The translations under genes and the position numbers were made by a program. DNA of 64,000 bases from a virus (lineage: Duplodnaviria > Caudoviricetes). Shown here in pieces: positions 26 through 29,683 of the stretch. Location: positions 64,001-128,000 of the IMG/VR virus record IMGVR_UViG_3300035101_000015, one strand, 5' to 3'. Positions within the stretch are counted from its first letter, which is position 1; each line of letters begins with the position of its first letter. The notes under the pieces were generated by a model. That model ran no database searches and was not told the DNA's origin. It saw nothing but the letters and a program-made list of their open reading frames with translations.

Positions 26-1762
26 TCACATCCACGTGTTCTTGGAGGGGGAACCCCTCTTCACGCTGGCAACTGACTGGATACTCGGTTCTACCACCTC
101 GGAAGCCGTATCAGCAAACGGCAGCTCATCGAGGTACGCCGTCCTCAAGTAGCTGAACGACAGAGGTGTGAAGACTTCGTCTGCAGAGGAGGCAGCGAGC
201 TTTGCAATCCCTTCGTCGGTTGGTGCCGCCTTGGGGAGCATGTCTTGAGCGCTTGCCACCATCTCCATCAGAGCTGTCCGATACCCGTTGTACGCAACCC
301 CAATCTTACGTAGGTCTTCGGAACTATGGGAAGTGGGTGGTTCATCACTTCCCTTCTCGGTGATGATGATGCGCTTCTCTACGAAAGGACCGAGTCCTGA
401 ACGACCCTGGAGAAGCGGCATGAGGAGGCGCGCCAAAGAGGGCATGAAACTCGAGGAATCGAGCGCACACGCCTGACTTTCCTCCACTTTCGGGAACACC
501 TTGTTGGCCGCTGCCAGCTCATTCGCCAGGTCCTTCTTGCCCAGACGGATGAGGGTGATGCGCTGGAACTCCTTGGGCTTCAACACGATACCCATGCTGG
601 CCGTTGTACCAAGCGCCTTCTCCTCAGGCACCGAGGCCAGGGCGTTGATGGCGCTCTCCGGGAGGTCCTTCTCGGTCTTCGTCAGCAGAGGTACAGCCTT
701 CCCTGCGAACTGTGAGGGGATGACGTCCTTCTTGATTTCACCCTGCTTGTCCTCTGCCGACTTGATGCCGAACGCCTTCTTCAGCATGTCGTCAGGCACA
801 CTCGCAACCTTGGCTGCGGTGTCCATATCCATCTCGCCGGCGCAGTAGACCGAGGCAACTTTCTCCCCTGCCTCAGCACTGGGGATGTAGCGCGTGTCCC
901 CTTGCCTCACGATGAATACCATCACCTTGGCGGTGCGGTCAGCGCCGATGAAGACGAAGCTGATGTCGAAGAAGCGTGGGTAGGGATTGTAGACGAAGAC
1001 CTTCCTGCCGTCGGGCAGGATGCGGTTCATGTGGTTCTTCGTCCACTCATCGTAGTCGTTGCGGGTGATGCTGAGACCACGAATGCCAACACCATCCTTG
1101 GCCCTGAGCTCCTTGTGAAACTTGACTATGGCCAGACCCGGATAGGCGAACTTCTTCGGGTCGAAGGTCTTCATCGCCTCCTGATAGAGCTTCCAGTCGG
1201 TGGTGATTGAACTCAGGTCGTAGCAGACCTTCGAGCCCATGGAGACGTCTGGGTACTGCCCGAGCTTGAGCTTGTCCCACACGGGCACGCCACCGAACTT
1301 CACGCACTTGTCGTGGTCGACTCGGCAGACGAGCTCGACGCGCTTCATCCCCTCATTCCACACCGCAAGTTCAACCTGACCGTAGGCTCGGCTTGGGTCC
1401 TTGTTACGATGGTGTGCGTAGGGGTACGCATTGTAGAAGGTCGGGTAGCCGTAGGTCCACTTCTGACCAAGCGGGCGGTCGACTAGCGGATTGCCGGACC
1501 ATCCCGGAGGTGTGTGGATGAGCCCCGCCTCCTCGAAGTGGTCTCCGTTGATGTTGCTGCCGTAGTACTCACCCGCACCCATGGCGTTGACGAGAACGTA
1601 TTGGCAACCAGGCTTCGGCTTGAGGTTGGCGATGTACTGCAGCACCTCAGGAAGCAGGTTGACCGATGCCGTCTTCTCGAAATACGAGTCGGCAGGGCCG
1701 AAGAGTGGCACGGCAGACAAGCCGTGCTCACTCTCTGAGAGGAAGGTGCTGAGCTTGTACAT
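26..1762 (-). CDS. Putative prohead (capsid maturation) protease
   Basis: 578 aa; GSNINGDHF, YAHHRN, DVSMG and FFDISFVFIGAD motifs resemble HK97/assemblin-type protease motifs; located in the head-gene block. Confidence 0.55.
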   Translation of the reverse strand: MYKLSTFLSESEHGLSAVPLFGPADSYFEKTASVNLLPEVLQYIANLKPKPGCQYVLVNAMGAGEYYGSNINGDHFEEAGLIHTPPGWSGNPLVDRPLGQKWTYGYPTFYNAYPYAHHRNKDPSRAYGQVELAVWNEGMKRVELVCRVDHDKCVKFGGVPVWDKLKLGQYPDVSMGSKVCYDLSSITTDWKLYQEAMKTFDPKKFAYPGLAIVKFHKELRAKDGVGIRGLSITRNDYDEWTKNHMNRILPDGRKVFVYNPYPRFFDISFVFIGADRTAKVMVFIVRQGDTRYIPSAEAGEKVASVYCAGEMDMDTAAKVASVPDDMLKKAFGIKSAEDKQGEIKKDVIPSQFAGKAVPLLTKTEKDLPESAINALASVPEEKALGTTASMGIVLKPKEFQRITLIRLGKKDLANELAAANKVFPKVEESQACALDSSSFMPSLARLLMPLLQGRSGLGPFVEKRIIITEKGSDEPPTSHSSEDLRKIGVAYNGYRTALMEMVASAQDMLPKAAPTDEGIAKLAASSADEVFTPLSFSYLRTAYLDELPFADTASEVVEPSIQSVASVKRGSPSKNTWM

Positions 1763-3850: not shown

Positions 3851-4555
3851 ATGGGAAGCGAGGACCTGGTCAGCCGCAAGGAGGCCGCAGCCATCTTGGG
3901 CACCACCGTCAAGATGGTAACCTACTGGACAGACAAGGAAATCCTCAAGGCCCACCCAGTCGACGGGGACCCACTCGGTAGGCTCATGTACGACCGAGAG
4001 GAAGTGGCGGCCCTAGCCGAAGCGCATGAGCGTGGAGAGAAGCTCTCCGACGTTGCCATGACCGCCAAGGTAGCCTATGCCTCCGCGCGTGTAGCACAGA
4101 GGAAGGCGGACATGCTAATGCGTGCGTTTGGGTACGGTCCGTCGCTGAGCACGGACCCAGAGTCCGTGCGCGCTCTGCACCTCGAGGCGGAGGAGGATTG
4201 CAAGCGGGTCATCAACGGTGAGGAGCGAGTCAGCTACTGGGCTGACAAGTTCTTCGGCATCTGCGACATCTACATGGAGCATGTAGCTGAAGTGATGAAG
4301 ACCGAGGAGCCATGGGAGCCCTACCTCACCCTGATGAGGCGACTCGCCAAGAATGCCGATTACGATGAGGCCGCCCACAACCCACTGCTGCGGCACGCCT
4401 ACCACCAGTTGACAGCATCCAGAGCTGCATTCCGGCAATCCTTCTTCACCTACCTCAGTGCCAAATTCGGAGTTAGAAAAGCGAGGAAGGCATTCCCTCA
4501 GGAGTTCGGCGGTGAGATGTACCGCATCATGCGCTACGCGGTGACGAACCGCTAG
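3851..4555 (+). CDS. HTH (MerR/excisionase-like) DNA-binding protein
   Basis: N-terminal LVSRKEAAAILGTTVKMVTYW...LMYDREEV winged-HTH pattern; start is 3851 or 3836. Confidence 0.65.
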   Translation: MGSEDLVSRKEAAAILGTTVKMVTYWTDKEILKAHPVDGDPLGRLMYDREEVAALAEAHERGEKLSDVAMTAKVAYASARVAQRKADMLMRAFGYGPSLSTDPESVRALHLEAEEDCKRVINGEERVSYWADKFFGICDIYMEHVAEVMKTEEPWEPYLTLMRRLAKNADYDEAAHNPLLRHAYHQLTASRAAFRQSFFTYLSAKFGVRKARKAFPQEFGGEMYRIMRYAVTNR

Positions 4556-6363
4556 CCCTGGTCGATTGGCCCCGGCCAGTTCTGCTTGCGGAAGCCGTGG
4601 GCGTCCTCGGTGTCCGGCGCGATGATGTCCGGGCGCGGGTGGTCGAACATCGATGCGAGCCAGCAGTACAAGAACGCGTGGAAGGAGTCGTCCGGCTTGT
4701 CGACGCCGTGCTTGTACTGAATCATCTTCAGGTTCTCGTTGTACTCACTGAAGATGTTGAGCATGTCCTGACCGAAGGGGTCACGGAAGTCCTGCCACCG
4801 TGGGAACTCACACTTGCCACGCTTGATGGCGTTGAAGATGTCGCTCATTACCTCAGTGCGGCTCACTAGGTAGCGCTGCAGCTTCCCATCCCACACCACC
4901 TTGCCTCGAGCAGAGCGAGCCAAGTACTGGAACTTGCGCACGCGCTGAGCGCCGAACGTCTTCACCAACTTGTAGTTGCTGCTAAATCCTCCGCCGTAGT
5001 CGGAGCCAATCCACTTCACGTTGAAGAACCGGATGAGCTCGATGATGCGCTCGATTTGCACGTCGGGGTCCACCTCCTCACCCACGAACCGGTGGGCGAA
5101 GATGACCCGGAACTTCATGTCGATGTACATCCCGAGGAAGATGACGGTGTAGCTGTGCTCTCCTGTGCCCCAGTCGATACCGGCATACACGCCCTGCGCA
5201 TAGCTGAGCTTGCGGTAGTTCTCCATGTCCGCCATCTTCAGCTCGCCCTTGCAGGCGTCTCTCAGTTGGCGGGTGGTGAGTGGACGAAGACCGGAGTCGT
5301 AGGAGAGCCCGAGGCACTCGTTGTAGAACTTCTCTCGGGGGTAGTGCTCGTAGTTGTGGAGGATGTCGTTCTGCCAGTCGACCCACGGCACCATGAGCTG
5401 AGGGATGCGGTAGCTCTCCCAAGGAGCCTCCTTCACCATCCTCATCCACGTCGCGTCTGGGTGCATCGGGTTGATGAGCCGCTTGCACTTCTCACAGATG
5501 AGCCCACGCTTGCCGATGTTCTTCTCACCAAGGACGTTCCAGAACCTACCTGCTTCTCCTCCATGAGCATCACAAGGGACCACCCACTCGTTCTGGGTGC
5601 TCATGTTCGCGCGGTAGTACTCGAGGTGATTGTCCAGACTCTTCGGTGTCCCCGAGTACACCTGGCGCTTCAACGTCTTGGGAGCGTGGCTGAGACACTG
5701 CTCGATGACCGGGACGTTGTCCTGCAGCACATCCTGGAACTCATCGATGGCCAGCATGTAGGCTGGGATGCCGCGCGTGCGGTCAGCATTCAGGTAGGCG
5801 TAGCGCAGCGTAATCTTCGAGCGGTTGATGAACTGCTTCTCGAAGATGTTCTGCGACAGCATCGTCGTGGTGAACCGACGCAGCACGGGGCTGGTCTCGA
5901 TGGGTTCCTTCACACGGTCGTTGCTGAAGGTCTTCGTCTGCGTAGCTGATGGACTGACATACAGAGCCTTGTACGTCGGGATGAGGCTCATGTAGCAGAT
6001 GATGATGTTGCCCAGCAGAGTGCTCTTCTCGACCTGGCGTCCACAGAACAACAGCAGCCGCTTCGCCGGCGTGTTGTAGCAACGCACCATGTGCCGGCGA
6101 CCCTCGAAGCTGAACTTGTCTATCTTGACGCGCTCGTCTTCGTTGCCATCTTCATCGATGAACTTCTCCGCTCGTGGCATCCAGAACGCGTAGGAGGTGA
6201 AGTCCGCTGGAGTCAGAGCGGGTATCTTCTCCTGCTTCTTCCTAGCGTTCTGCAGGACTATGGGGTCTTCGACGAGCTCCGGCTCAGGTATCCAAATGCG
6301 GTCGTCGTACCAAGTATCGTCCCACTCGTCCTCGGGTTCGACGTAGACTGGTTCAGCCGCCAT
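4552..6363 (-). CDS. terL: Terminase large subunit (gpA-like)
   Basis: Walker A GRQVEKST, Walker B IDEFQD, SGTP motif III, nuclease GIDWG and PDDSFHA; GGAGG RBS before the ATG at 6363. Confidence 0.9.
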   Translation of the reverse strand: MAAEPVYVEPEDEWDDTWYDDRIWIPEPELVEDPIVLQNARKKQEKIPALTPADFTSYAFWMPRAEKFIDEDGNEDERVKIDKFSFEGRRHMVRCYNTPAKRLLLFCGRQVEKSTLLGNIIICYMSLIPTYKALYVSPSATQTKTFSNDRVKEPIETSPVLRRFTTTMLSQNIFEKQFINRSKITLRYAYLNADRTRGIPAYMLAIDEFQDVLQDNVPVIEQCLSHAPKTLKRQVYSGTPKSLDNHLEYYRANMSTQNEWVVPCDAHGGEAGRFWNVLGEKNIGKRGLICEKCKRLINPMHPDATWMRMVKEAPWESYRIPQLMVPWVDWQNDILHNYEHYPREKFYNECLGLSYDSGLRPLTTRQLRDACKGELKMADMENYRKLSYAQGVYAGIDWGTGEHSYTVIFLGMYIDMKFRVIFAHRFVGEEVDPDVQIERIIELIRFFNVKWIGSDYGGGFSSNYKLVKTFGAQRVRKFQYLARSARGKVVWDGKLQRYLVSRTEVMSDIFNAIKRGKCEFPRWQDFRDPFGQDMLNIFSEYNENLKMIQYKHGVDKPDDSFHAFLYCWLASMFDHPRPDIIAPDTEDAHGFRKQNWPGPIDQG

Positions 6364-6617
6364 GTACCCTCCGAGGTTCACAGACGACCTGGGTCAAGCA
6401 GTTCAATGGCTCGGTGAATCTCTGTTCGCTGCCGTACCAAACCTCAGCGGGCAAGTCGCTTTTGCGGAGGACCCTGATGGTGACTGGATAGCGCTGCAAC
6501 TTGTAGAACCCGTCGCAAAAGAGCTCCGTGAACACTTCAGTGCTTACACTAAGGGGTATCTGAGAGAGTGTGGATGGCACGTCGACCGCTTCCGATTTCG
6601 TGCAGGTCGATTCGAGT

Positions 6618-10927: not shown

Positions 10928-12190
10928 TCAGACGAGGATGGTGGGGTTACCTGTAGAGATGACCCCTTCGAGGAACTGACCGGAGAGGATGGTACCTGGT
11001 CCCTGCGGTGTGGTGATGGCAATTGGAATCGTGATGGCCACGCGTACCGTCGAGCCTACCGATGCCACCGGCTTTCCGCCACCATTGAGCACCAGGCCAC
11101 CTCCGGCCGTGCCCAGCTCCGCACCACTCTTGCCGATGAGCTTCACCGAGCCCTCGGCTTCGACGGACACGTTCTTCTTGCAGAAGATTTCGATGTTGTC
11201 GTCCACGGTGAGCCGGAGCTTCTTCTTCACCCGCAGGTTCACTGAGCCTTCCCAGCGCCCCATCATGTTGCCTGCACGGTCTACGAAGATGCGCAGCTTC
11301 ACATCCTCAGCGTCTGCCTTGAATTCACCCGCATCCGTCTCAAACCCGTTGCGGGCCAGCACCATCTCGAAGACTGTGTCCTCGTCAGTCCCAATCTCGA
11401 GCTGGTTGTTGTTTGAATCCTCACCAGCATCACCAGTGGGCTCCGGTACTGGAGAACGTACTCGACCCATGGCGAAACGCATGTCTGCATACTCATCGTT
11501 GGCGAACACGCGCACGGTGTGACGCCATTCCGTATCCGGGTCGTCGTTACCCCGGTCCTGCACACCCCAGTTGATGGAGCCGCCCGAGTTGAAGTGGTTG
11601 TACTTCTGGCTGATGTCGGTGACGAGGTTCTGCAGCGGGATGCAAATCCGTTGTGCGAGTGGGGTCGCGCCAAATTGGGCCACTCCTCCACGATGCAAAA
11701 TCATGAAGTTCCCATCTCTCGTTCGGGCTACGATGTCGCCCGGCTTCCCACGAGTCCTGCCACCTGCGTACGTGTAGTCGCTGGTACTCTCCGTATTGCC
11801 CGCCGCATCCGGTGAGGTTCCCGCAGGGGCCTCCTCGCTTGAGGTATCGGGAATCGTCACCATAGGCATGATGAAGGCCAGGACAAACGGCGGCGGCCCG
11901 TCCGAAGGAATGCAGATGAGACACTTCGCTCCTACCTCCGGTACAACGTAGAGACCCTCACCCTGGTTGGCGTTCATGTAGGGACTCGCAACCTGCAGGT
12001 CGAGCATGACCTTCTGGTCGAAGATGGTGGCGACGTCCACCGTCCAGTTGGTCATGTTGACGTTGAAGATACGCGCCTCGTGAACGTAGGCGGCGACTGC
12101 ACCCTCAGGCTGAGTCCACGATGAACGAGCGAAGCTACTCCACGCCAGTGGGTTGAAGTAGTCGGTGTACATGCCCTTGAGTGCGGGCAT
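10928..12190 (-). CDS. Putative baseplate spike / gp5-gpV-like protein
   Basis: N-terminal OB-fold-like GEGLYVVPEVGAKCLI; C-terminal beta-strand repeats (VSVEAEGSVKLIG). Confidence 0.55.
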   Translation of the reverse strand: MPALKGMYTDYFNPLAWSSFARSSWTQPEGAVAAYVHEARIFNVNMTNWTVDVATIFDQKVMLDLQVASPYMNANQGEGLYVVPEVGAKCLICIPSDGPPPFVLAFIMPMVTIPDTSSEEAPAGTSPDAAGNTESTSDYTYAGGRTRGKPGDIVARTRDGNFMILHRGGVAQFGATPLAQRICIPLQNLVTDISQKYNHFNSGGSINWGVQDRGNDDPDTEWRHTVRVFANDEYADMRFAMGRVRSPVPEPTGDAGEDSNNNQLEIGTDEDTVFEMVLARNGFETDAGEFKADAEDVKLRIFVDRAGNMMGRWEGSVNLRVKKKLRLTVDDNIEIFCKKNVSVEAEGSVKLIGKSGAELGTAGGGLVLNGGGKPVASVGSTVRVAITIPIAITTPQGPGTILSGQFLEGVISTGNPTILV

Positions 12191-15100
12191 CTAGTACCCC
12201 CACTCGGGCAGACCCTTCAGATGAGGCGCCTTGAAGTGGTGGCGCTTCTTCGTCATGCCGAACTCCGCACCGTAGGCCGCACCCGGAATGGGATGCAATC
12301 CATGAAGGTCGCTCGCCGAGCCCTCTGCCGCAGCGTCGGTCAGGGTCTTGGTCAGCCGGTTGTAGTTCAGCTTGGCCATCCAGTCTTCTTGCATCGCCCG
12401 GGGCATCACATCAATACCCTTCATGATGGGAGCGTGGGTGATGGGCTTCTTGCCGGATTTCACGAGCTGGGAGTTCACCGCTCGGACCTTCGAGGTGGGC
12501 TGGTACTCACCCTTCAGGATACCGGACGCACCTCCTGGAGAGCGTACACGTGTGAGGTTGCTCATCCCCTTCACCACCGTCTCGATGTGCTGGCGGCGCA
12601 CGCCCTCGTTCTTGAAGATGCCATGGAGCTCGTCCGTCAGGTAGTTCTGCACGCGCTCCATGTTGTTGGTGGCCTTGTACAAGTCGTGTGGGTTCACGAA
12701 GGTACGGGCGGGGTCACTGAGCTGCTGACCAGCCTCGACCTTCATACCCACCTTCGGCGGAGTCCAACCAGGCGCCTGCATGTTAGGTAGTGAGGTATGA
12801 AGTGACCTACCAGTTCGGTCCTTTGGAACGAAGTGCTTCATCCCATCGATGAAGATGTTGGTACCAGTACGACCCGTCTCCACCTTGTCGACGGTACCAG
12901 ATTTCATGGCTAGAGAGGCAGAGTCCGGGATGCGCTTCGGCAGCAGCGTGAGCTGCTTGGTGCGGTCGAACATGCCGAGCGTTCCACCACCCTCTGCTTT
13001 CACACCACCTGAATGGAATGCCTTCAGCGCGAGCTGCACCGAGCGCTCACCGAGAGACTGCGCTCCGAGCACGCCGACGTTGGTGCCCTTGTCGTAGTAC
13101 TGACCTGTAGGACTGAGCCCAGCGCACTTCTGGCAGAGACCCTCTCCATGCTCACACTTCAGGGTCGAGCGCACGACAGCCTGCGCGTTCTTGTCGAGCC
13201 GGCGAATCTGACCGACCACGTCTGGGGACATGATGGTCCCCTTCTTGAAAGTGCGACCACGCACCTTCAAGTCCGTCGCGAGCTCGCGGTCGTGCACGTC
13301 CTTGCTGCCTATAGGCAGGCCAACACCACGCTGGGTACCACAATCGTCACCATTCACCACCATGTTCATCGTGGTGTTGATGAGCTGCTTGGAGAAGTAC
13401 CCCGGGTCCTGAACCTCCTGCACCTTCTGGATGGAGCCCTTGCGGGCACCGCTGGACTGGGTCCAGTACCCCGCCACGTCGAGTCCTTCGGAGTAGGACT
13501 TCGTCACCGGCATCGGTATGGTTCGCCCAGCAGCATCCTCGAGGAGCATCGGTGCCAGCTTGAGCTGCTGGTACTGTGACCACTTCGGCTTGATGCCAGC
13601 ATCGTGCATCCTGAAGAGGTTGTCCGGGTTCTTGGTGGCACCAGACAGGTGCTTCTGCTGCATCTGAGTGGTGGCCTTACCCCACTCGGCAATGGCACGC
13701 TGCTCCTTCTGAGCCTTGGTCAACCCAGAGTTGTTTATCATGTCCACACGCCGCTGCGTGGCTCGGATGATGGGGTCTCGAACCTTCCTGTCAGGTGTCA
13801 GGTCATCGAGGCTGAGCGAGTGGGTACCGACGGGAAGGGTTTGAACCTTCTTGGGATTCTCCGCTGCGTCGATTGCACCAGGACCCACATGCTTGCCTGG
13901 GTGCTTCAACCGAATCTGTCCATAGGAGGCATCGAAGCCAAAGTCCTTGAGCTTGTTGGCTGCATCCCCAAACTCCTGAGGGTGCTTCCTTGCCAGCTCA
14001 CCGTACAGCTCATCGATACCCCTGCCGTTGAGCTGGAACTTGTGGTCTGTCAACACGCGCTGCTGCATCGGCTTGGGCAGCGCGGTCGACAGCAGAGCTC
14101 GACCCGGTGTCGTCTTGCCTAGCCCCTTGATTTGCGCCAGCTCATCGATGCCGAGCTTGCCCGACTGCACAGCCTTCAGTGCATCAGCGGGGCTGCCGAA
14201 CCTTCGGTTACCGGTACCACGCACCTGAGTCATCTTGTAGAGACCGAGCGCGCTCTCGAGCGTGGGGGTGTACGCCACGCGCCCAGTCGCCTCATTGAAG
14301 AGGTTCCTGGAAGGCATCATGCCGCGAGCCTCTTCGACTGCCTCGTCGCTTATCGGCACGTACATGCTCATCTGGTCGCCATCGAAGTCGGCGTTGTACC
14401 CAGAGACGGTGAGCGGATGAATCTTGATGGCCTTGCCCTTCACCCGATGAGCCTTGAACGCCTGGATGCTGTGCTTGTGCAAAGCTGGGTCGCGCTTCAT
14501 GAGCAGCGGCCGTTCCTCCATCACCATGTCGAGCGCACGCTGGACGTTCTTGTCTCGATGCACACCCTTCTTCGTCAGCATCTCCTGCGCCTCGAGGGCG
14601 CTGGGCGCAACGCCGAGCTCGGTCATCTTCTTGACCACGAACGGTCGGAACAATTTCAGCGCCTTCTCCTGAGGGACGCCCACGTCATCCAACCCCATGC
14701 CCGGCTCTGGCACGATGGTCGAGCGCATGCTCATGTCCTGACGTCGACTGAGCAGCGTCTTCTGGAAGTAACCTTCCTTAGGTGACGCGCCGGAGATGAG
14801 CTCCATGACGCCCTTGGCCTTCTTGGTACCCTTCTCCGAGCTGGACTGCCCGACACCAACCAGGGCCTTCAGGCCATCGTACATCTCTCGGCGGTGCTCC
14901 TTCAGGTCGGCATCCCCGATACCGAGGTGTGCCTTACCCTTGAGCTCTTTGAGCTGACCGTTGTTCTGAGCGAAGTTGGAGTAGAGACCGTTGAGGTCCT
15001 CCCAGCGCACGTTGCCATCCTTCATGATGCTCGGTGGGCGCATGGCAGGAGGAAGCACGGGGAGGTTCTTGACGGTGTACGCGTCGTCGGGACTGACCCC

Positions 15101-18100
15101 CTTCTCCTTGAGCAGGCTGAGGTACTTCACCCGCTTCAGAGCATTGTCGAGCTTCTGGGTGTTGGCTCCATGAGCAAACCCTGAGGGGATGTTGGCAGCA
15201 TGCAAGTCCTTCTTGGCTTGGTCGAGGGCCTTGTCGACGCTGAGCCCTTTCAGCGCGCCGGCGATTGCTGCCCCACCAGTATCACCCTTGCCTAGTGCAA
15301 CGACGTTGCCCTTCTTGTCCAGAGCCTTGTCACCATTGACCACGTCGTTGTACTGCCTACCAGTGAGGCCGAGCACCTTCTGGATGGCACCCTCGAACAT
15401 CGGGTTCGGCATGGGCTCGGCGAGCTTCATGTGACTCCACTTCTTGCCGCCCACACCACCAGTCACCTTCTCGTCGAACAATCCTCCTGGTAGAGGCTTG
15501 AGGTTGCCCTCCTTGTCCACCTTTGAGTAGGTCAAGCGGCTGGGCTGCTTGAGCTCACCCGAGGACATCTTCATCACCTCAGCATCCGTGAGCGGGCTGA
15601 GCTGCATCCGGTGGCCCTTCTTCTCCACATTCACACCGGAGGCACGCAGCATGTCGGTGAACTTGCGGAAGGCGAAGGTGGGCTTGGGAGTAGGCAGTGG
15701 CTCACCTAGCTGGATGGAGTTCCACACCTCATGGTGCTGACTGGGGAACTTCTTCGCCTCGGGTGCAGGGTCGGGGCCCTGGGACTTCCACGTCTGCGCC
15801 TCACGGATGTTGGCCTTCGCTCCATGGGCCAGCAGTACGTTGAGTCCGAGATTGCCGAACGACTGCCCGCCACTCTTGCCTCCACTGGTGGGCATGAGGT
15901 TGACGTCGTAGGTCTCGGGCGTCTCGCCCTTGAGCGTCAGACCAGAGCGGACGCTGACCTTCTTGTCCACCTGGTGCTGCAGCTTGAGCATGTGCTGGGG
16001 TCCAACCAGAGCCTTGCCCAGGCTCTTCCCCGTCCTCGGGTCTACGAGCTCCTCTTGGTCACTCAGGCCGTGCCTCTTGAGCTCCTTCTTCACTCGGTCG
16101 ACCTGGTCCACACCGTGCTCGAAGTTGTCGATGACGATGGGCTTGCCAGTCTTCTTGGCCACCTTGCCCAGTGCTGTCTCCAGCACCTGACCGACGTTCA
16201 TACGTCCGGGCACGCCCGATGGATTGAGGGCCACCTGCACGACCTCGCCGGACTTGGTACGTGGCATCTCCTCGTCAGGTACGACCTTGGTCACGATGCC
16301 CTTGTTGCCATGACGGCCGGTGAGCTTGTCGCCGACCTGCATCTGCTCCTCGGTCTTGACGTGTACGGTGACCTCGCCCTTCTTGTTCTTGTGGACGCCT
16401 ACGACCTTTCCACCGTAGTCGCTGTCCCACTTGAGTGAGGCGTCACTGTGCTGCCCAGCGAGGCTCTTTCGGATGCGAGCGATGCCCGAACGGTCGGTGA
16501 TTTGCACGGGACGTGTCGCCAATACCAGAGGGTCACCTGGATTCACATGCTGACCGACCTTCACCACACCATCATCACCCAGCTTCCCGTACTGCTCCTT
16601 CTTGTAGGACTCCGGGTGCTGCACCTGGAACTTCTTCGGAGCGGTGACGTCCTGGTCGGTGAGCTTCACACTCGGCTTGTGCATGTGCTCGCTGCGCAAC
16701 TTCTTGGCAGCGCTCTCACTGATGACGACGCCATCCTCGAAGTTGTATCCCTTCCAGGGGATGTAGGCGACGTTGAGGTTGGCACCCAACGCCAGCTTGC
16801 CTTTCTTGGTGAAGTTGGTGTCGGCTACAGGCTGACCAGCCTTGACCTTCTGGCCCGGCTTGACCGTGGCCTCGGAGTTGAGAACGGACTTGGCGTCGTT
16901 CAGGGGGAAGTTGTCGTAGAGCTGGACGGTGTGAGCCTTGCCCTTGGAGTCCTTGAGCACGACTCCCTTCTTGGTGACCTTCTCCACAGTCCCATCCACC
17001 GGCGACATGTGCCCAGACTGTCGACCGATGAACTCCTCGAAGCTGCGAACACCCTTGCGGCCCGAGCCGGTGCCAACCTGTACCAGTGGCTCTTCACGGT
17101 CCTTCAAGCTGATGGCCTGCTCGATGTGGTGGGTCGCGTAGCTGGCGCGGTTGCCTGAGTTGTTCCCCATGAAGGGGATGAGGTTGCTCGTCATGCTGAA
17201 CGCCTGCGATGGGTGGAACATCGCGTACTGGGCGTCCTTCATACTCATCTCCTCGAGCTCGTTCGCCTTCGAGGAGACCTTCACCTTTGAGCCTACCGCT
17301 GTGGGTTTGCCACCTTCCCACTTCACCTGGTCTGGCAGAACCACGTTCGACTTGACGAAAGTGCCTGGTCCGATGAGCTCCTTCTTGCCAGTTTTCAAGT
17401 TGTATACCGGAATGCGTGGTTCTTTCCCCACCTTCTTCACACCCATTGGCAAGTGAAGCGTCACGCCAGTCTTCTGGCCCTCAGGGGTATGCAGTGGGTC
17501 AACGAACCCGAAGTGGCTGGGGTTGATGAGCTTCGCCTCATCCATGATGGCGTTCTCGCTCTGAATGCCACCTGGGCCCATGATGGTGGTGGACATCGAC
17601 GAGGCCATCATCTCTACAGGATTGACCTGGTCCGCCACCCGCATCGCCGAGTTCTTCCTGAAGGTGTCCTGCACGGGCTTGTTGAACACCTCACTGCGGA
17701 CGACGTCTCTTGGTGAACTGGCGTTGTTGATTTGCCGCAGCATCTTGTTGCGGATGGACTTGGCCGTCTTCCAATCGGTCAGCTTGTCGTGAGCGTAGTC
17801 GCCTACGCTGCGCAGGTCCTTGAACACCAAGTTGTCCCGGTCGTCCTCTGGCGCGCCGGCCTGGACCTTGAGCATCTTGGAGGTGGCCCTGGTGAAGGCG
17901 TCACCCTCCACTCGGTCGAACTTCTTGCCCAGCGTGAGCTCGGTGGCATCGGGTCGGACCTCCGAGGCCATCAGGGTGTCCCGCACGTACGCCTCGGCCG
18001 CCTCCCTGTCCTTGGGCGCGAACTTGCGGTCGGCCTTGAAGAAGCGCTCGAGCGCGGTACCGGCGCCACGCGCATTCTTGTTGGCCTCGAGGACGTCCTT

Positions 18101-18652
18101 GCCCCATTGCCGCTCGAGCGTGTCATCGTCGACCCCCATCGCCTTCATGATGGGGTAGACGGGGATGCTCTTCGACTTCCCCCGCTCCATAAGGAAGGTC
18201 TTCTTCTCAGGATTGAAAGTGATGTCGAATGCCGGACGGTTGGCGATGTTGAACCTGGTCTCGAGCTCACCACTCTGACGGCGTCGGGTGTAGACCCCTG
18301 GCTTGAGCTGCCACTGGTTGTCAGCCTGGTATTCCTGACCGCCCACGATGTAGCTGTAGCGACGGGTGAGCACGGGCAGCTCCGCCACCTTCATCCGCTG
18401 AGTGGTCTCCTTACCTGTCTTGTGGTCCTTGAGGGCCATGGTGGCGTACACCGGTCGGCTGAAAGTGCCGCCCTCCACCTTGGCCTTGTGCTGACCCTCG
18501 ATGTCATCGGAGTCGGCTTTCTCCATCTGCACGTCCAGGTCCTTCAGGACGAGCGACTGCTCTCGTCCCTCGACCGGGAAGTGGGAGCGGATTCCTTCCA
18601 GCGCCCGCTCCTTGAAATCCGCAAACGCCTCGTCGTGGTCCAGGTACGCCAT
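12191..18652 (-). CDS. DNA-directed RNA polymerase, fused beta-beta' single polypeptide
   Basis: beta motifs (HTPEG, GYNFEDG, GDKLTGRHGNKG, LNPSGVPGRMNVGQ, KLQHQVDKK) followed in frame by beta' motifs (LPVLPPAMRP, RDPALHK, NADFDGDQM, GARKG, CEHGEGLCQKC, AQSLGERSVQLALKAFHSGG). Confidence 0.95.
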   Translation of the reverse strand: MAYLDHDEAFADFKERALEGIRSHFPVEGREQSLVLKDLDVQMEKADSDDIEGQHKAKVEGGTFSRPVYATMALKDHKTGKETTQRMKVAELPVLTRRYSYIVGGQEYQADNQWQLKPGVYTRRRQSGELETRFNIANRPAFDITFNPEKKTFLMERGKSKSIPVYPIMKAMGVDDDTLERQWGKDVLEANKNARGAGTALERFFKADRKFAPKDREAAEAYVRDTLMASEVRPDATELTLGKKFDRVEGDAFTRATSKMLKVQAGAPEDDRDNLVFKDLRSVGDYAHDKLTDWKTAKSIRNKMLRQINNASSPRDVVRSEVFNKPVQDTFRKNSAMRVADQVNPVEMMASSMSTTIMGPGGIQSENAIMDEAKLINPSHFGFVDPLHTPEGQKTGVTLHLPMGVKKVGKEPRIPVYNLKTGKKELIGPGTFVKSNVVLPDQVKWEGGKPTAVGSKVKVSSKANELEEMSMKDAQYAMFHPSQAFSMTSNLIPFMGNNSGNRASYATHHIEQAISLKDREEPLVQVGTGSGRKGVRSFEEFIGRQSGHMSPVDGTVEKVTKKGVVLKDSKGKAHTVQLYDNFPLNDAKSVLNSEATVKPGQKVKAGQPVADTNFTKKGKLALGANLNVAYIPWKGYNFEDGVVISESAAKKLRSEHMHKPSVKLTDQDVTAPKKFQVQHPESYKKEQYGKLGDDGVVKVGQHVNPGDPLVLATRPVQITDRSGIARIRKSLAGQHSDASLKWDSDYGGKVVGVHKNKKGEVTVHVKTEEQMQVGDKLTGRHGNKGIVTKVVPDEEMPRTKSGEVVQVALNPSGVPGRMNVGQVLETALGKVAKKTGKPIVIDNFEHGVDQVDRVKKELKRHGLSDQEELVDPRTGKSLGKALVGPQHMLKLQHQVDKKVSVRSGLTLKGETPETYDVNLMPTSGGKSGGQSFGNLGLNVLLAHGAKANIREAQTWKSQGPDPAPEAKKFPSQHHEVWNSIQLGEPLPTPKPTFAFRKFTDMLRASGVNVEKKGHRMQLSPLTDAEVMKMSSGELKQPSRLTYSKVDKEGNLKPLPGGLFDEKVTGGVGGKKWSHMKLAEPMPNPMFEGAIQKVLGLTGRQYNDVVNGDKALDKKGNVVALGKGDTGGAAIAGALKGLSVDKALDQAKKDLHAANIPSGFAHGANTQKLDNALKRVKYLSLLKEKGVSPDDAYTVKNLPVLPPAMRPPSIMKDGNVRWEDLNGLYSNFAQNNGQLKELKGKAHLGIGDADLKEHRREMYDGLKALVGVGQSSSEKGTKKAKGVMELISGASPKEGYFQKTLLSRRQDMSMRSTIVPEPGMGLDDVGVPQEKALKLFRPFVVKKMTELGVAPSALEAQEMLTKKGVHRDKNVQRALDMVMEERPLLMKRDPALHKHSIQAFKAHRVKGKAIKIHPLTVSGYNADFDGDQMSMYVPISDEAVEEARGMMPSRNLFNEATGRVAYTPTLESALGLYKMTQVRGTGNRRFGSPADALKAVQSGKLGIDELAQIKGLGKTTPGRALLSTALPKPMQQRVLTDHKFQLNGRGIDELYGELARKHPQEFGDAANKLKDFGFDASYGQIRLKHPGKHVGPGAIDAAENPKKVQTLPVGTHSLSLDDLTPDRKVRDPIIRATQRRVDMINNSGLTKAQKEQRAIAEWGKATTQMQQKHLSGATKNPDNLFRMHDAGIKPKWSQYQQLKLAPMLLEDAAGRTIPMPVTKSYSEGLDVAGYWTQSSGARKGSIQKVQEVQDPGYFSKQLINTTMNMVVNGDDCGTQRGVGLPIGSKDVHDRELATDLKVRGRTFKKGTIMSPDVVGQIRRLDKNAQAVVRSTLKCEHGEGLCQKCAGLSPTGQYYDKGTNVGVLGAQSLGERSVQLALKAFHSGGVKAEGGGTLGMFDRTKQLTLLPKRIPDSASLAMKSGTVDKVETGRTGTNIFIDGMKHFVPKDRTGRSLHTSLPNMQAPGWTPPKVGMKVEAGQQLSDPARTFVNPHDLYKATNNMERVQNYLTDELHGIFKNEGVRRQHIETVVKGMSNLTRVRSPGGASGILKGEYQPTSKVRAVNSQLVKSGKKPITHAPIMKGIDVMPRAMQEDWMAKLNYNRLTKTLTDAAAEGSASDLHGLHPIPGAAYGAEFGMTKKRHHFKAPHLKGLPEWGY

Positions 18653-18692
18653 GGGCTAGTCGATTCTAGCGTACTTCATGGCGGAAAGGCGC

Positions 18693-18721
18693 TGCAAGGA
18701 GTTGATGAACACCGGGATAAG
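18693..18721 (+). promoter_or_regulatory. Putative promoter TGCAAG-N17-GATAAG
   Basis: Bipartite motif repeated at the head of four plus-strand blocks. Confidence 0.6.
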
Positions 18722-18760
18722 AGGCGTGAAGGTGGCTCATCCGCCTTTCAGAAAGGAAGC

Positions 18761-18892
18761 ATGTCAGGACCAGGCAACACAGGAGCACTCCTCGAGGACG
18801 AGTTGGACGACATCTACAGTGAAGACGGCCAGTCCGAAGAGGAGGACGAGGAGGACACGGATTCTGACGATGATGACGGGGACGACGACTGA
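18761..18892 (+). CDS. Small, extremely acidic protein (43 aa)
   Basis: AAAGGAAG RBS; MSGPGNTGALLEDELDDIYSEDGQSEEEDEEDTDSDDDDGDDD. Confidence 0.5.
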   Translation: MSGPGNTGALLEDELDDIYSEDGQSEEEDEEDTDSDDDDGDDD

Positions 18893-20151: not shown

Positions 20152-21339
20152 ATGGCTACATTGGAACAGGTAATCGCCACCTGCCTCATGACTCCGAGGC
20201 ACGACCCCAGGGACGCAGCGTGTGTCTGGGGGTTGCCGCTGAACATCGTGGGGCTCTCTGGAGGCGGGAAGTCCGAGCGCATCGCTCAAGCATGTGCCGC
20301 CGTTGGCCTGCCGCTCTTCGTTGTGTTTCCAGCGTCGAAGCAGCCGGAGGACTTCGGCGGCGCGCCGTTCATGTCAGCAGATGGCATCATCATCGAGTGC
20401 ATTCTCCCTCAAGCCAACAAGCTGCGGGACCTCGGTCAGGGTGTCCTGGCGATTGATGAGCTCAGCACCGCACGTCCTGCAGTCCAGGCGTCGGCGCTGG
20501 GCTTGGTCAACGACCGCCGCGTCGGTGACCATCTACTTCCTCCCAGGGTTCGCGTCGTCACGGCAATGAACCCCACCGAGTACGCCGCCGGTGGCTTCAC
20601 TCTGGAAGCTCCGCTGGCGAACCGCATGATGCACGTCACATACGACATGCCTACCGTGAGTGAGTGGACCGATTGGCTCACTGGGCAACCTCAGCACCAC
20701 CTCGAGAGCGTGGTCAACGCAGAGCAGAAGATTCTGGCAGGCTGGGATGAGCACTGGTCACAACTCCGTGGACTCATGGTTGGGTTCATGGAATCGAACC
20801 AGTCGCAGCTCCACCAGCAGCCCAAACCCGATGACCCAGACGCTAGTGGACCGTGGCGTAGCCCACGCATGTGGCACTGGGCCGGGCGTGGAATCGCTGC
20901 TTCGCGCTGCCTGGGGATGCCTGGCGACATCGAGAACAAGCTCATCGCTGGCTGCGTAGGTGAAGGGGTACTGCCTGAGTGGATTGAGTGGGTCAGCAAG
21001 GCCGACTTACCTCACCCGAGGGACATGCTCCAGAAGAACTGGATGCCGGACACCCAGCGTCTGGACATCACCATGGCCGCACTCACCTCGATGTCGATGT
21101 GGGTCTGCGACATGAAGGACCTGCAGGCGCAGCAGCAGTATGCCATCCCCGCTTGGGGCCTGGTGGACCGTGTGTTCGACGCCGGACTGGCCGACGTCGC
21201 CATGAAGCCAGCGAGCGCGCTGCTCGGCAAGAACCTGGGGCACACCAGCCCCAATCCGAGCTTGAAGCAGGCGGCGCGAGAGGTCATCCTCAAGCTCGGC
21301 CGCAGTGGCTACGCCAAGTTCGCAGGACTCATCCAATGA
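20152..21339 (+). CDS. MoxR-type AAA+ ATPase
   Basis: Walker A GLSGGGKS, Walker B AIDELS, TAMNP sensor, PLANR arginine finger, SPRMW. Confidence 0.85.
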   Translation: MATLEQVIATCLMTPRHDPRDAACVWGLPLNIVGLSGGGKSERIAQACAAVGLPLFVVFPASKQPEDFGGAPFMSADGIIIECILPQANKLRDLGQGVLAIDELSTARPAVQASALGLVNDRRVGDHLLPPRVRVVTAMNPTEYAAGGFTLEAPLANRMMHVTYDMPTVSEWTDWLTGQPQHHLESVVNAEQKILAGWDEHWSQLRGLMVGFMESNQSQLHQQPKPDDPDASGPWRSPRMWHWAGRGIAASRCLGMPGDIENKLIAGCVGEGVLPEWIEWVSKADLPHPRDMLQKNWMPDTQRLDITMAALTSMSMWVCDMKDLQAQQQYAIPAWGLVDRVFDAGLADVAMKPASALLGKNLGHTSPNPSLKQAAREVILKLGRSGYAKFAGLIQ

Positions 21340-27617: not shown

Positions 27618-29683
27618 ACCGGCGCTGCCTCTCTACGTGGTGGGCGCTGCTCTGGCAGCGGGCGCATATCCACCTGCGGGCCACCTCCACCCTGCTGTAG
27701 GTGGCTGAGCATCTGCGCAACGAGCTGAGCGAGCTCGGGGGACTGAGCCTCGAGTGCCTCCAGCGCCATCTGCTGCTGGTCGGGCGGGAGCTGGGAAATC
27801 TGCTGAGCGTAGCCCTGGGCCATAGCCAGCGGGTCGCCACCCATCTGACCATCCTCGAGGCGGTTGCCCATACCGAGCTGGCTCTGTGCCTCCTGGCCGA
27901 GCGCGCTCAGGGGTCCCCCGCCGGGCATGCCTGCCACGGGCTGTGGCGCCGGACCCATCGGTACACCGCCCTGCGCTGGAGGCATGGCCCCAGCGGCATT
28001 GAGCGGGCCGGGTGGCGGCTGGGCGCCCATCTGCGCAGCCATGGCAGGGTCCATCGCCCCTTCTGGACCACCAGGTTCACCTGGGGCTGGAGCACCTTGC
28101 TCGGACATCATCCCAGCCTGCGCTTCGGCCTGGTACTTCATCATGACCTTCTGTGCCTCTCCCTGCACTTCGGCCATGGCTAGCTGCTGCTTGCGCGTCG
28201 ACTGCAGCCGCTTGTCGATTTCTCGCATCATGATTTCGTCCTCGTCTTCCTGACTGAGGTCAGCGTCTGCGAGGAGGGTGGTGTCCGAAATCTTCTGTGC
28301 CTGGTTGAGCTGGAAGAGGTACGCCTTGCGCTGGATGTCGTCGGCCATCTTGAAAGGCTTGAAGCGGATGTTCGCCTCCGGCCAATCGAGGTAGTTGGCA
28401 ATCATCTTCATGACCCAGTTGGCCATGAGCTTCTGTCGCAGGACGTAGCCGATGAACGCATTCTCGAGCATGCGCATCGAGACGTTGGTGCCGGCGTAGC
28501 TCATCCCGCCCTGGAGGAACTCGCGCGGCACGCCCATACCCATGATGAGCTGCTCGGAGTGCATCTGCATCTCCTGGAAGAGCAGCAGGGCCTTGCCATC
28601 ACCACCGATGCTCTGGTTGCCCAGTGGCAGTGGCATGATGGGGATGTAGTTGTGGTCGTAGCGCCAGCGCGCAATCTCCGCAGCGACCTGTTCCTTCCAC
28701 TGCGTGAGGTTGATGGTGCTGAAGGGGTCGGTGGTCCCACTCGCCGCCTGCGGGAACAGCACGCGCAGCGGGACGATGTGCTCGAGCAGGATGGCCTCTT
28801 GGGCCTTCTTCATGAGCTGCAGGTAGAACGCGTCCTTGAGCACCGGCAGGATGAGCGGGATGCCCCAGCCTCGGTCCTGCCACGCCAGCGTCGGGCGCTT
28901 CAGGTGGAAGAAGTTGTCCTTGCTGAAGACGATGCCCTTCTGCTGACGTAGGGCCTGGATGAAGATTTGAGGGATGCCCTCGACCACATCCTTCTTGCCG
29001 ATGACGATGTCGCTGCGAAGGGGCCCGGGGATGTTGTAGAAGTAGGTACTCTCACCAGTGATGTCGTTGTAGGTGATTTCGATGTCTTCGACGTTCCACC
29101 GGACGAGACGGATGCCGGACGCGTTCTTGTAGTACACGTCCTTGACTTCAGCTTCCTCGATGTTCCCGCAGCTCGGGCAGTTCAACCGGAAGCCGTAGTT
29201 GGTGAACGTCCAGAACTGACGCACCTTGCTGGCACGCTCGGTCCACCCACACTGACGGCAGGAGATGTACTTCTGGAACGGGAAACTGATGCTGACCGGG
29301 CAGTTGCCGTAGCAGCCATAGTCCAGACCCGCCTCCACCTGGAAGGAGCGGAAGAGAAGGTGGTCATGGTAGTACTCCTCCCACCGACGCTTCACCTCGC
29401 CACTGTCGTGGTCGACGATGATGTCCGTGATGGGATACTCCGCCAGTTTGAAGACCGTGGCGTTGATGAGCGGGTTGGTGAGGAAGTAGTAGCGGCAGTA
29501 CTTGAACAGCTCCTTGACCGTCGTCGGCAAGTACGTGTGTGCAATGTCGAAGAACGGGTTGGGGTAGTTCACCCCGTTCAACATGCTGCCCTGGATGCGC
29601 CCACGCGTTACGCCAGCGCCACCCCGGCCTGGCCCCATCGGAGAGGTGCCGAAGTTGAAACTGCAGACGCCTGGAAACGTCAT
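27614..29683 (-). CDS. Portal protein
   Basis: NPLINATVFKLAEYPI, HLKRPTL...GWGIPLI, MGVPREF; low-complexity Q/P/G tail. Confidence 0.75.
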   Translation of the reverse strand: MTFPGVCSFNFGTSPMGPGRGGAGVTRGRIQGSMLNGVNYPNPFFDIAHTYLPTTVKELFKYCRYYFLTNPLINATVFKLAEYPITDIIVDHDSGEVKRRWEEYYHDHLLFRSFQVEAGLDYGCYGNCPVSISFPFQKYISCRQCGWTERASKVRQFWTFTNYGFRLNCPSCGNIEEAEVKDVYYKNASGIRLVRWNVEDIEITYNDITGESTYFYNIPGPLRSDIVIGKKDVVEGIPQIFIQALRQQKGIVFSKDNFFHLKRPTLAWQDRGWGIPLILPVLKDAFYLQLMKKAQEAILLEHIVPLRVLFPQAASGTTDPFSTINLTQWKEQVAAEIARWRYDHNYIPIMPLPLGNQSIGGDGKALLLFQEMQMHSEQLIMGMGVPREFLQGGMSYAGTNVSMRMLENAFIGYVLRQKLMANWVMKMIANYLDWPEANIRFKPFKMADDIQRKAYLFQLNQAQKISDTTLLADADLSQEDEDEIMMREIDKRLQSTRKQQLAMAEVQGEAQKVMMKYQAEAQAGMMSEQGAPAPGEPGGPEGAMDPAMAAQMGAQPPPGPLNAAGAMPPAQGGVPMGPAPQPVAGMPGGGPLSALGQEAQSQLGMGNRLEDGQMGGDPLAMAQGYAQQISQLPPDQQQMALEALEAQSPELAQLVAQMLSHLQQGGGGPQVDMRPLPEQRPPRREAAPV

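What the first reader, a model, noticed from the sequence alone, without database searches (positions are those of the whole stretch)
12191..18652. Compact single-chain beta-beta' RNA polymerase inside the virion gene block
Seen: complete cellular-type beta and beta' catalytic motifs fused in 2153 aa, clearly shorter than the two bacterial subunits combined. The beta' N-terminal zinc finger appears to be absent (GLFDEKVTGGVGGKKWSH), and no alpha or sigma gene is recognisable in the window. The gene abuts the baseplate gene. Inference: a phage-lineage RNAP, possibly virion-packaged or late-specific, with an unknown specificity factor.
Basis: partly seen in the sequence, partly recalled or inferred. 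Interest (0 to 1): 0.72.

Follow-up and report, generated by a model that had tools for sequence, protein, structure and literature searches.

The report
Single-chain bacterial-type phage RNA polymerase
An uncultured phage of about 187 kb encodes both large subunits of a bacterial-type RNA polymerase as one 2153-residue protein. The genome also carries its own sigma factor and a conserved phage-specific promoter, so the phage probably transcribes its genes without the host enzyme.

Summary
Window 12191-18652 (-) is one intact ORF of 2153 aa (236 kDa) with beta then beta' domains and all catalytic motifs. The beta' N-terminal zinc finger is deleted: the protein's only four cysteines form the second zinc site.

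It is not a captured host gene. No bacterial genome holds a relative above 30% identity. In a tree it lies outside all 25 sampled bacteria, sister to Salmonella phage Arash and Vibrio phage D69.

The single-chain layout is the norm in a very large metagenomic clade: 1021 clusters at 50% identity, and 92 of 93 long representatives are fused.

A sigma70-family gene lies 77 kb away in the same genome. It is homologous to Arash Gp10 and occurs once in each of four near-complete relatives, which carry one RNAP gene and no alpha.

A GGnATAAG promoter core (here TGCAAG-N17-GATAAG) is conserved next to the RNAP gene across relatives of 44-62% GC.

Virion packaging is inferred only. It rests on Arash proteomics and on the gene's place at the head of a strand block that contains a spike-like gene and the terminase.

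This scan has flagged the same family before on other genomes. I found no paper describing it.

The parts
12191..18652 (-). Single-chain beta-beta' RNA polymerase ORF: 2153 aa, 236 kDa, pI 9.6
15623..18652 (-). beta-like half, residues 1 to about 1010. It lacks the E. coli lineage inserts SI1 and SI2. It keeps NFEDG (16730-16744), GRHGNKG (16298-16318) and the flap-tip helix (16448-16486). The rifampicin-pocket segment lies at 17579-17653.
   Evidence: alignment to Salmonella RpoB; coordinates
12191..15622 (-). beta'-like half, residues about 1011-2153. Contains the clamp helices (14939-14998), NADFDGD (14375-14395), bridge helix (13364-13450), second Zn site (13124-13348) and trigger loop (13004-13051). 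There is no SI3.
15431..15487 (-). Site of the deleted beta' N-terminal zinc finger (residues 1056-1074, GGLFDEKVTGGVGGKKWSH)
   Evidence: The same deletion is present in Arash and Vibrio phage D69.
15539..15637 (-). beta/beta' junction: the beta C-terminus runs straight into the beta' N-terminus with no added linker domain
18653..18760 (.). 108-nt divergent control region between the RNAP gene and a small acidic ORF
18663..18668 (-). TAGAAT, a -10-like box 10 nt upstream of the RNAP ATG with no Shine-Dalgarno sequence after it. TAGAATC (TACAATC in L092) lies at the same spacing in all six close relatives aligned. It suggests a leaderless or near-leaderless RNAP mRNA.
18693..18721 (+). Bipartite promoter-like element TGCAAG-N17-GATAAG pointing away from the RNAP gene
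   Evidence: The strict pattern has 5 copies in the genome, all on the + strand, against 0.075 expected; a weight-matrix scan adds a sixth good + strand site. Conserved at the same place in five relatives. The GGnATAAG core is kept at this place in about 22 of 33 wider relatives.
10928..12190 (-). 420-aa gp5/gpV-like central spike candidate, starting directly after the RNAP stop codon (TAG|ATG)
   Evidence: The synteny is conserved in five relatives.
4552..6381 (-). Large terminase, in the same leftward (minus-strand) gene block as the RNAP
   Evidence: PHROG 675 E 1e-53; Arash TerL homolog

Best explanation
The ORF encodes an active catalytic core of a phage-lineage RNA polymerase of bacterial type, in which beta and beta' form one polypeptide.

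Shown: the domain set, intact catalytic residues, conservation across a very large phage clade, a position outside bacterial RpoB/RpoC, loss of the first zinc finger and of the lineage-specific inserts, and no alpha or omega gene in complete relatives.

Inferred: the covalent link between the two halves replaces the assembly role of the alpha dimer. The core pairs with the phage's own sigma70-family factor (276 aa, G000:C1:4788-5615). The holoenzyme reads the phage-specific promoters with a GGnATAAG -10-like core, here TGCAAR-N16-18-GATAAG, which head the plus-strand non-structural operons.

Also inferred: because the gene heads a leftward block containing a spike-like gene and the terminase, and because the Arash homologues are abundant in particles, the enzyme is probably made late, packed into the virion and injected to start transcription. 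My odds for packaging alone are about 0.6.

The rifampicin pocket differs from the bacterial consensus at Q513R, F514V, H526S, R529S and S531T, so transcription is predicted to be rifampicin-insensitive.
For: Domains and motifs. Catalytic residues are invariant in 20 relatives of 55-77% identity.

Family size and architecture: more than 100 full-length relatives of about 2150 aa. There are 1021 clusters at E<=1e-10 for the family-specific N-terminus, and 92 of 93 long representatives are fused. A further 33 IMG/VR loci hold it; the 28 I could read from the start codon without running off a contig end are single ORFs.

Not bacterial: the best of 599 bacterial matches is 30% identical or less. 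In the tree the family is a clade (100), sister to Arash+D69 (100), and all 25 bacteria sit on the other side (100). The AU test rejects a union with Actinomycetota, p 0.0002.

Sigma: tblastn to Arash Gp10 gives 1e-14 and the profile 5e-42. The profile against PDB hits SigA at 2e-15. The AF2 model has pLDDT 86 and Foldseek finds sigma factors at probability 1.0. Sigma hits lie on contigs of the same lengths as RNAP-bearing contigs. Four of four relatives at 95% completeness or more carry one sigma and one RNAP ORF but no alpha.

Promoter.

Packaging: Arash proteomics. Operon context and synteny.
Against: No experiment exists for this clade apart from Arash particle proteomics. That study called 116 of 272 proteins 'structural', and its authors note that carry-over of abundant proteins is possible.

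The clamp-helix residues that bind sigma70 in E. coli are changed (R275N, R278Q, E295H, A302G). This fits a private sigma but proves nothing.

Which polymerase reads GGnATAAG and which reads the TAGAAT box is unknown. The motif is absent from Arash and D69. The sigma gene's own upstream motif is not conserved in relatives.

The record is 78% complete. The tree has long branches and used a quick LG+G4 search.
Confidence: 0.7

Rival explanations
1. The enzyme is not packaged. It is made after infection, from a host-read promoter such as the TAGAAT box, and serves as a middle or late polymerase, while host RNAP does the early work.
For: A canonical-looking TAnAAT box lies 10-11 nt upstream of the RNAP ATG in all six close relatives aligned, and TAGAAT lies 5-10 nt upstream of two other minus-strand starts. 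The Arash authors themselves allow carry-over of abundant enzymes.
Against: Complete relatives hold only one RNAP and one sigma. The gene sits in the same strand block as the spike-like and terminase genes rather than with early genes. In Arash the homologue gives more spectra than the major capsid protein.
Confidence: 0.25
2. The phage sigma redirects the host RNA polymerase, as T4 gp55 and SPO1 gp28 do, and the single-chain core uses some other factor or none.
For: Phage sigmas that serve host RNAP are common (established knowledge; reviewed in PMC7824862). Binding of this sigma to this core was not tested.
Against: Sigma and the fused core co-occur one-to-one in complete genomes and, by matching contig lengths, on many contigs. 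Both are found in Arash particles. The core keeps the clamp helices and flap-tip helix, which are the two sigma docking sites.
Confidence: 0.15
3. It is a recently captured or contaminating bacterial rpoB-rpoC, for example from a host with fused genes such as Helicobacter or Wolbachia.
For: The fusion order matches natural cellular fusions (PMC7483510). The best PDB and genome matches are bacterial beta' chains.
Against: Identity to every bacterium is 30% or less. The tree and AU test place it outside the bacteria. It sits between phage genes with conserved synteny on contigs of 170-200 kb, two of which have terminal repeats.
Confidence: 0.02
4. It is an inactive polymerase relic used as a structural or DNA-binding virion protein.
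For: It lies in a virion-type gene block and has lost the first zinc finger.
Against: All three catalytic aspartates and the beta DPBB glycine/lysine motif are invariant across relatives down to 55% identity, and the NFED loop, bridge helix and trigger loop are retained with many invariant positions. Inteins sit in the gene in many relatives, which is typical of essential enzymes.
Confidence: 0.02

Closest known systems
RNA polymerase of Salmonella phage Arash (Gp206 + Gp216, with sigma Gp10; PMC10585845) and of Vibrio phages D69, D148 and D181
   Same: Sister clade in the tree. It shares the beta-to-beta'N fusion, the deletion of the first zinc finger, a homologous sigma and a myovirus-size genome of about 180 kb. 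The Arash proteins are abundant in particles.
   Different: Identity is only about 30%. In those phages beta' is split near P0001 residue 1518 into a separate 606-609 aa protein, 4.8 kb away in Arash. Here the whole core is one chain. The GGnATAAG bipartite motif is absent from both genomes. The paper does not comment on the fusion.
Cellular rpoB-rpoC fusions of Helicobacteraceae and Wolbachia (Zakharova et al. 1999; Lane & Darst 2010, as cited in PMC7483510)
   Same: The order is the same (beta then beta') in one polypeptide. This shows that such a tether is compatible with function.
   Different: Those enzymes are ordinary bacterial ones that keep alpha, omega, the zinc finger and lineage inserts. 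This one branches outside bacteria, is about 600 aa shorter than the E. coli pair, and has no alpha gene in its genome.
Multisubunit RNAPs of phiKZ/AR9-type jumbo phages (PMC7598289, PMC7824862)
   Same: They are phage-encoded two-barrel polymerases without alpha or omega, and one set is packaged in the virion.
   Different: Those are split into 4-5 polypeptides, come as two paralogous sets and have no sigma. Here there is one chain, one set and a sigma70-family partner. Pfam cellular domains hit far more strongly here.
Single-chain two-barrel phage RNAPs: YonO, crAss-like gp66, P23-45 tape-measure-fused RNAP (PMC10770324)
   Same: One polypeptide carries both double-psi beta-barrels. Some are delivered with the virion.
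   Different: Those are minimal or highly divergent enzymes lacking most beta/beta' modules. This one keeps the flap, clamp helices, second Zn site, bridge helix and trigger loop of bacterial RNAP.

Membership tests
Bacterial-type beta/beta' RNAP catalytic core | beta' double-psi barrel with NADFDGD | tested here: met
   Residues 1420-1426. The three Asp are invariant in 20 relatives.
Bacterial-type beta/beta' RNAP catalytic core | beta barrel with GxxGNKG lysines and the NFED loop; Rpb2_6 domain | tested here: met
   PF00562 E 7e-66. GRHGNKG at 779-785 and NFEDG at 637-641.
Bacterial-type beta/beta' RNAP catalytic core | Bridge helix, trigger loop and second (C-terminal) Zn site | tested here: met
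   Alignment to Salmonella RpoC. C1771, C1833, C1840 and C1843 correspond to C814, C888, C895 and C898.
Bacterial-type beta/beta' RNAP catalytic core | beta' N-terminal zinc finger (C70, C72, C85, C88) | tested here: not met
   The segment is deleted and there are no other Cys in the protein.
Bacterial RNAP core enzyme (alpha2-beta-beta'-omega) | Separate beta and beta' chains assembled on an alpha dimer, with omega | tested here: not met
   The core is one chain. There are no PF01000, PF01193 or PF01192 hits in the own record and no PF01000 hit in four near-complete relatives. Use of host alpha cannot be excluded.
Sigma70-dependent holoenzyme | A sigma70-family partner encoded with the core | tested here: met
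   276-aa protein. Profile against PDB hits SigA at E 2e-15 over regions 2-4. Foldseek finds sigma factors. One copy per complete genome.
Sigma70-dependent holoenzyme | Physical binding of sigma to the clamp helices and flap tip; promoter-specific initiation | not testable with these tools
   The docking elements are present but diverged.
phiKZ/AR9-type jumbo-phage multisubunit RNAP | beta and beta' each split into two or more polypeptides; virion and non-virion sets; no sigma | tested here: not met
   There is a single ORF, a single set and a sigma. The family definition is from PMC7598289 and PMC7824862.
Arash-like phage RNAP clade | Common descent; beta fused to the beta' N-terminal part; zinc finger lost; Gp10-type sigma | tested here: met
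   Sister groups with support 100. Shared deletion. Sigma homology at 5e-42. The architecture differs: beta' is not split here.
Cellular rpoBC fusions (Helicobacter, Wolbachia) | Nested within its own bacterial lineage | tested here: not met
   It lies outside all 25 bacteria sampled, which include several Pseudomonadota-labelled genomes. No Campylobacterota were in the sample, but identity to any bacterium is 30% or less.

The most novel reading that the evidence does not exclude
This clade carries a self-contained minimal transcription machine of bacterial type. It consists of one 236-kDa beta-beta' chain that needs no alpha or omega, plus one private sigma that reads GGnATAAG promoters. The machine is packed into the virion and injected, and it is the only polymerase the phage needs from first to last gene. 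If so, it would be the simplest known sigma-dependent RNAP and a natural two-component orthogonal expression system.
Probability: 0.3. Interest if true: 0.8.

Novelty: new variant of a known kind. Interest (0 to 1): 0.62.

Why it matters
Phage-encoded cellular-type RNA polymerases are known mainly from phiKZ/AR9-like jumbo phages, where the subunits are fragmented and no sigma exists. Here the opposite design appears: everything is fused into one chain and paired with a sigma70-family factor. It dominates a clade with more than a thousand 50%-identity clusters in metagenomes, yet I found no paper that describes it.

It bears on three questions:
- How far can a bacterial RNAP be pared down? This one has no alpha, no omega, no first zinc finger and none of the E. 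coli inserts SI1, SI2 or SI3.
- How do large phages become independent of host transcription and of rifampicin-type inhibition?
- Could a two-gene, sigma-dependent orthogonal transcription system be built?

Salmonella phage Arash offers a cultured, tractable relative for testing.

Tried and rejected
- AlphaFold of the downstream 420-aa spike candidate with a six-sequence alignment: pLDDT 39, unusable, so no fold search was run.
- A profile of that protein against PDB sequences found nothing meaningful.
- tblastn of that protein and of the 731-aa neighbour against cultured phages gave no match.
- The sigma candidate alone against Pfam and PDB gave no significant hit. Only the family profile and the fold revealed it.
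- Hexamer enrichment in intergenic regions gave no clean second promoter class.
- The GGnATAAG 8-mer is not enriched in count (10 observed against 9.5 expected). Its evidence is its position, its orientation and its conservation.
- The bipartite motif was not found in Arash or D69.
- Scans of IMG/VR for sigma relatives by pattern failed. They were replaced by a profile search of whole records.
- The sigma gene's own upstream GGCATAAG is not conserved in four relatives, so I make no claim of autoregulation.
- A T7-like RNAP search (PF00940) found nothing, but its controls did not ring, so it is uninformative.
- Literature searches for a description of this architecture found none.
Full report
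THE OBJECT
Window 12191-18652 on the minus strand is a single ATG-started ORF of 2153 codons. The window is bases 64001-128000 of a 145,842-bp IMG/VR virus record rated 78% complete, which implies a genome of about 187 kb.

Pfam places Rpb2_3 (339-401), Rpb2_6 (552-903, E 7e-66), Rpb1_1 (1014-1240, below cut-off), Rpb1_2 (1303-1446) and Rpb1_5 (1723-2045) in the cellular beta-then-beta' order.

I aligned it to Salmonella RpoB+RpoC, Arash and Vibrio phage D69. The alignment shows:
- the NFED loop and GRHGNKG;
- the flap-tip helix and the clamp helices;
- NADFDGD, the bridge helix, the second Zn site and the trigger loop.

It also shows what is missing relative to Salmonella:
- beta SI1 (about 225-343), SI2 (about 938-1040) and part of 1122-1180;
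- beta' SI3;
- the beta' N-terminal zinc finger.

The protein has exactly four cysteines, all in the second Zn site, so loss of the first finger is unambiguous. The beta C-terminus runs directly into the beta' N-terminus. The product is 236 kDa with pI 9.6.

IT IS A FAMILY, NOT AN ACCIDENT
A search of 5.8 billion proteins returned more than 100 relatives of 2130-2170 aa at 54-77% identity, on contigs of up to 200 kb. Longer forms carry inteins.

I searched the family-specific first 270 residues against 1.84 billion cluster representatives. This gave 1021 clusters at E<=1e-10. Of the top 150, 93 are 1900 aa or longer, and 92 of those contain all five beta and beta' segments in one chain.

IMG/VR added 33 loci at 37-59% identity. 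Of the 30 that include the start of the gene, 28 are single ORFs of 2047-3249 aa and two are cut by contig ends. In 20 aligned relatives the catalytic aspartates and the GNKG glycines and lysine are invariant, and the NFED loop, bridge helix and trigger loop are retained with many invariant positions. An assembly artefact or a dead gene is therefore excluded.

IT IS NOT A HOST GENE
A scan of one genome for each of 185,579 prokaryote species found 599 matches, none above 30% identity.

I built a maximum-likelihood tree of concatenated beta+beta' with 37 rows and 2143 columns, using LG+G4 and a quick search:
- the family is a clade (support 100);
- it is sister to Arash + Vibrio D69 (100);
- all 25 bacteria from 13 named phyla sit on the other side of a long branch (100).

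An AU test rejects joining the phage clade to Actinomycetota, the source of the best pairwise hits (p 0.0002).

Caveats: the branches are long, composition is heterogeneous, there is no archaeal outgroup and no Campylobacterota were sampled.

CLOSEST CULTURED RELATIVES
In Salmonella phage Arash, Gp206 (1525 aa) equals beta plus the beta' N-terminal part, and Gp216 (606 aa) equals the beta' C-terminal part, 4.8 kb away. Vibrio phage D69 has the same split. Both lack the zinc finger.

The beta-beta' junction is therefore shared by the whole clade. The undivided beta' distinguishes the metagenomic family.

The Arash paper reports Gp206 as the most-detected protein in particle proteomics (3516 spectra), Gp216 among the top five (1210 spectra), and sigma Gp10 at 100% coverage. 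Its authors caution that abundant enzymes may be carried over (PMC10585845).

THE SPECIFICITY FACTOR
No sigma lies in the window. tblastn with Arash Gp10 hit G000:C1:5124-5492 at 1e-14, inside a 276-aa ORF at 4788-5615 (-).
- Alone, this ORF matches no Pfam family.
- It has 114 homologues, many with precomputed Sigma70_r3 or r4 hits. They lie on contigs of the same lengths as RNAP-bearing contigs.
- A profile of 38 of them hits SigA chains in the PDB at 2e-15 across regions 2 to 4.
- The AlphaFold model (pLDDT 86) matches sigma factors in Foldseek at probability 1.0.
- Arash Gp10 matches the profile at 5e-42.
- There is only one paralogue in the record.

Four of four relatives of 95-100% completeness, two of them with terminal repeats, have exactly one sigma, one RNAP ORF and no alpha. 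The own record has no alpha or omega either.

The clamp-helix residues that bind sigma70 in E. coli are changed (R275N, R278Q, E295H, A302G), and the flap-tip hydrophobic patch is partly changed. This fits a private sigma-core pair, but that is inference only. Binding could not be modelled.

PROMOTERS
I tested it.
- The strict pattern has five copies in the genome, all on the plus strand, against 0.075 expected. A weight-matrix scan adds a sixth good site, also on the plus strand.
- Each heads a non-structural plus-strand unit. These include the small acidic ORF plus the MoxR/VWA genes, Ro60, the helicase/UDG pair, and the DnaB/primase/PolA genes.
- One copy (18693-18721) lies in the 108-nt region upstream of the RNAP gene and points away from it. 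In an alignment of that region from six genomes, both boxes are conserved while the rest drifts.
- In the wider set of 33 distinct loci (GC 0.44-0.62), a GGnATAAG lies on the opposite strand 30-100 nt upstream of the RNAP start in about 22. Chance expectation is well under one locus.

A promoter core kept across phages of such different composition argues for recognition by a phage-encoded factor rather than by diverse host sigmas.

The motif is absent from Arash and D69.

The same alignment shows a second conserved block, TAGAATC (TACAATC in one relative), 10-11 nt upstream of the RNAP ATG with no Shine-Dalgarno sequence after it. TAGAAT also lies 5 and 7 nt upstream of two other minus-strand starts. 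This looks like a -10 box for leaderless mRNAs of the structural-side genes. More distant relatives have an ordinary ribosome-binding site instead. Which polymerase uses which class remains open.

CONTEXT
The RNAP gene is the first gene of a leftward operon. Its TAG stop is followed at once by the ATG of a 420-aa protein. That protein has sub-threshold Phage_base_V similarity and language-model look-alikes in Phage_base_V/Gp5_OB clusters.

Next come ORFs of 223, 731 and 311 aa and, further on, the large terminase. This order is conserved in five relatives. The portal lies at 27614-29683. So 'inside the virion gene block' is reasonable, but 'baseplate gene' rests on weak evidence.

MECHANISM PROPOSED
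The single chain is the complete catalytic core. The tether makes an alpha platform unnecessary, as natural cellular fusions show is tolerable (PMC7483510). With the phage sigma it initiates at GGnATAAG-type promoters.

The enzyme is expressed from the same strand block as the spike-like and terminase genes, and its Arash homologues are abundant in particles. It is therefore probably packaged and injected. With only one RNAP per genome, it may serve throughout infection.

The rifampicin pocket differs at Q513R, F514V, H526S, R529S and S531T, which predicts insensitivity.

NOVELTY
Reviews of phage multisubunit RNAPs describe only fragmented, sigma-less enzymes and YonO-like minimal ones. My searches found no description of this architecture.

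This scan has flagged the same family at least four times on other genomes with the same reading. Those notes are not independent evidence.

- the four-cysteine proof of zinc-finger loss;
- the AU test;
- the architecture census;
- one sigma, one RNAP and no alpha in complete relatives;
- the conserved GGnATAAG core and the TAGAAT box beside the gene.

Noticed in passing
window 18761-18892 (+): A 43-aa extremely acidic ORF (run of D/E) is the first gene downstream of the bipartite promoter. Relatives have a 30-54 aa ORF at the same place. It could be a DNA mimic or a host-takeover peptide.
   Followed up: no
window 23076-24923 (+) and 25310-25436 (+): A Ro60/TROVE + vWA protein (Pfam E 4e-55) with a 127-nt tRNA-like RNA just downstream (Rfam tRNA, 49 bits). 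This is probably a YrlA-type Y RNA. Other agents of this scan have followed it up.
   Followed up: partly
window 26018-26171 (-): ARAGORN calls two tandem tRNA genes as tRNA-Phe with the unusual anticodon AAA. Rfam scores only the second as a tRNA.
   Followed up: no
window 56332-60042 (-); also G000:C1:9765-12197 (-): A 1236-aa multidomain protein (2H-SAK phosphoesterase, LigD_N phosphoesterase, ATP-dependent ligase, InPase) and an 810-aa InPase protein. Both resemble the 'polyvalent' injected proteins. This fits a phage that packs many enzymes, as Arash appears to do.
   Followed up: no
window 20152-22775 (+): A MoxR-like AAA_5 ATPase followed by a DUF2201 metallopeptidase/VWA protein. The pair is conserved next to the RNAP region in all five relatives.
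   Followed up: no
G000:C1:145297-145314 and 1379-1390 (-), outside the window: TAGAAT lies 7 and 5 nt upstream of ATG starts of long minus-strand ORFs, like the RNAP gene. This is a possible class of leaderless late transcripts.
   Followed up: partly
L078 (CAZWLF010000008.1, an 18-kb contig binned as Gammaproteobacteria): Separate compact beta (1099 aa) and beta' (1161 aa) that branch outside the 25 bacteria in the tree. Probably another phage or mobile-element RNAP lineage mis-binned in a MAG.
   Followed up: no
L089 (Cobetia phage Carin-5, PV155638.1): A sigma-beta-beta' operon with separate subunits on a very long branch. Its sigma is not related to the family described here.
   Followed up: partly
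proteins P0255, P0258, P0261, P0263, P0280: Family members of 3200-4739 aa, far longer than one or two inteins would explain. They may carry several inteins or extra fused domains.
   Followed up: no
L012 and L055: rpoBC of a MAG labelled Hyphomicrobiales groups with Bacteroidota, and one labelled Coriobacteriaceae groups with Oscillospiraceae. These are likely binning errors in public MAGs.
   Followed up: no
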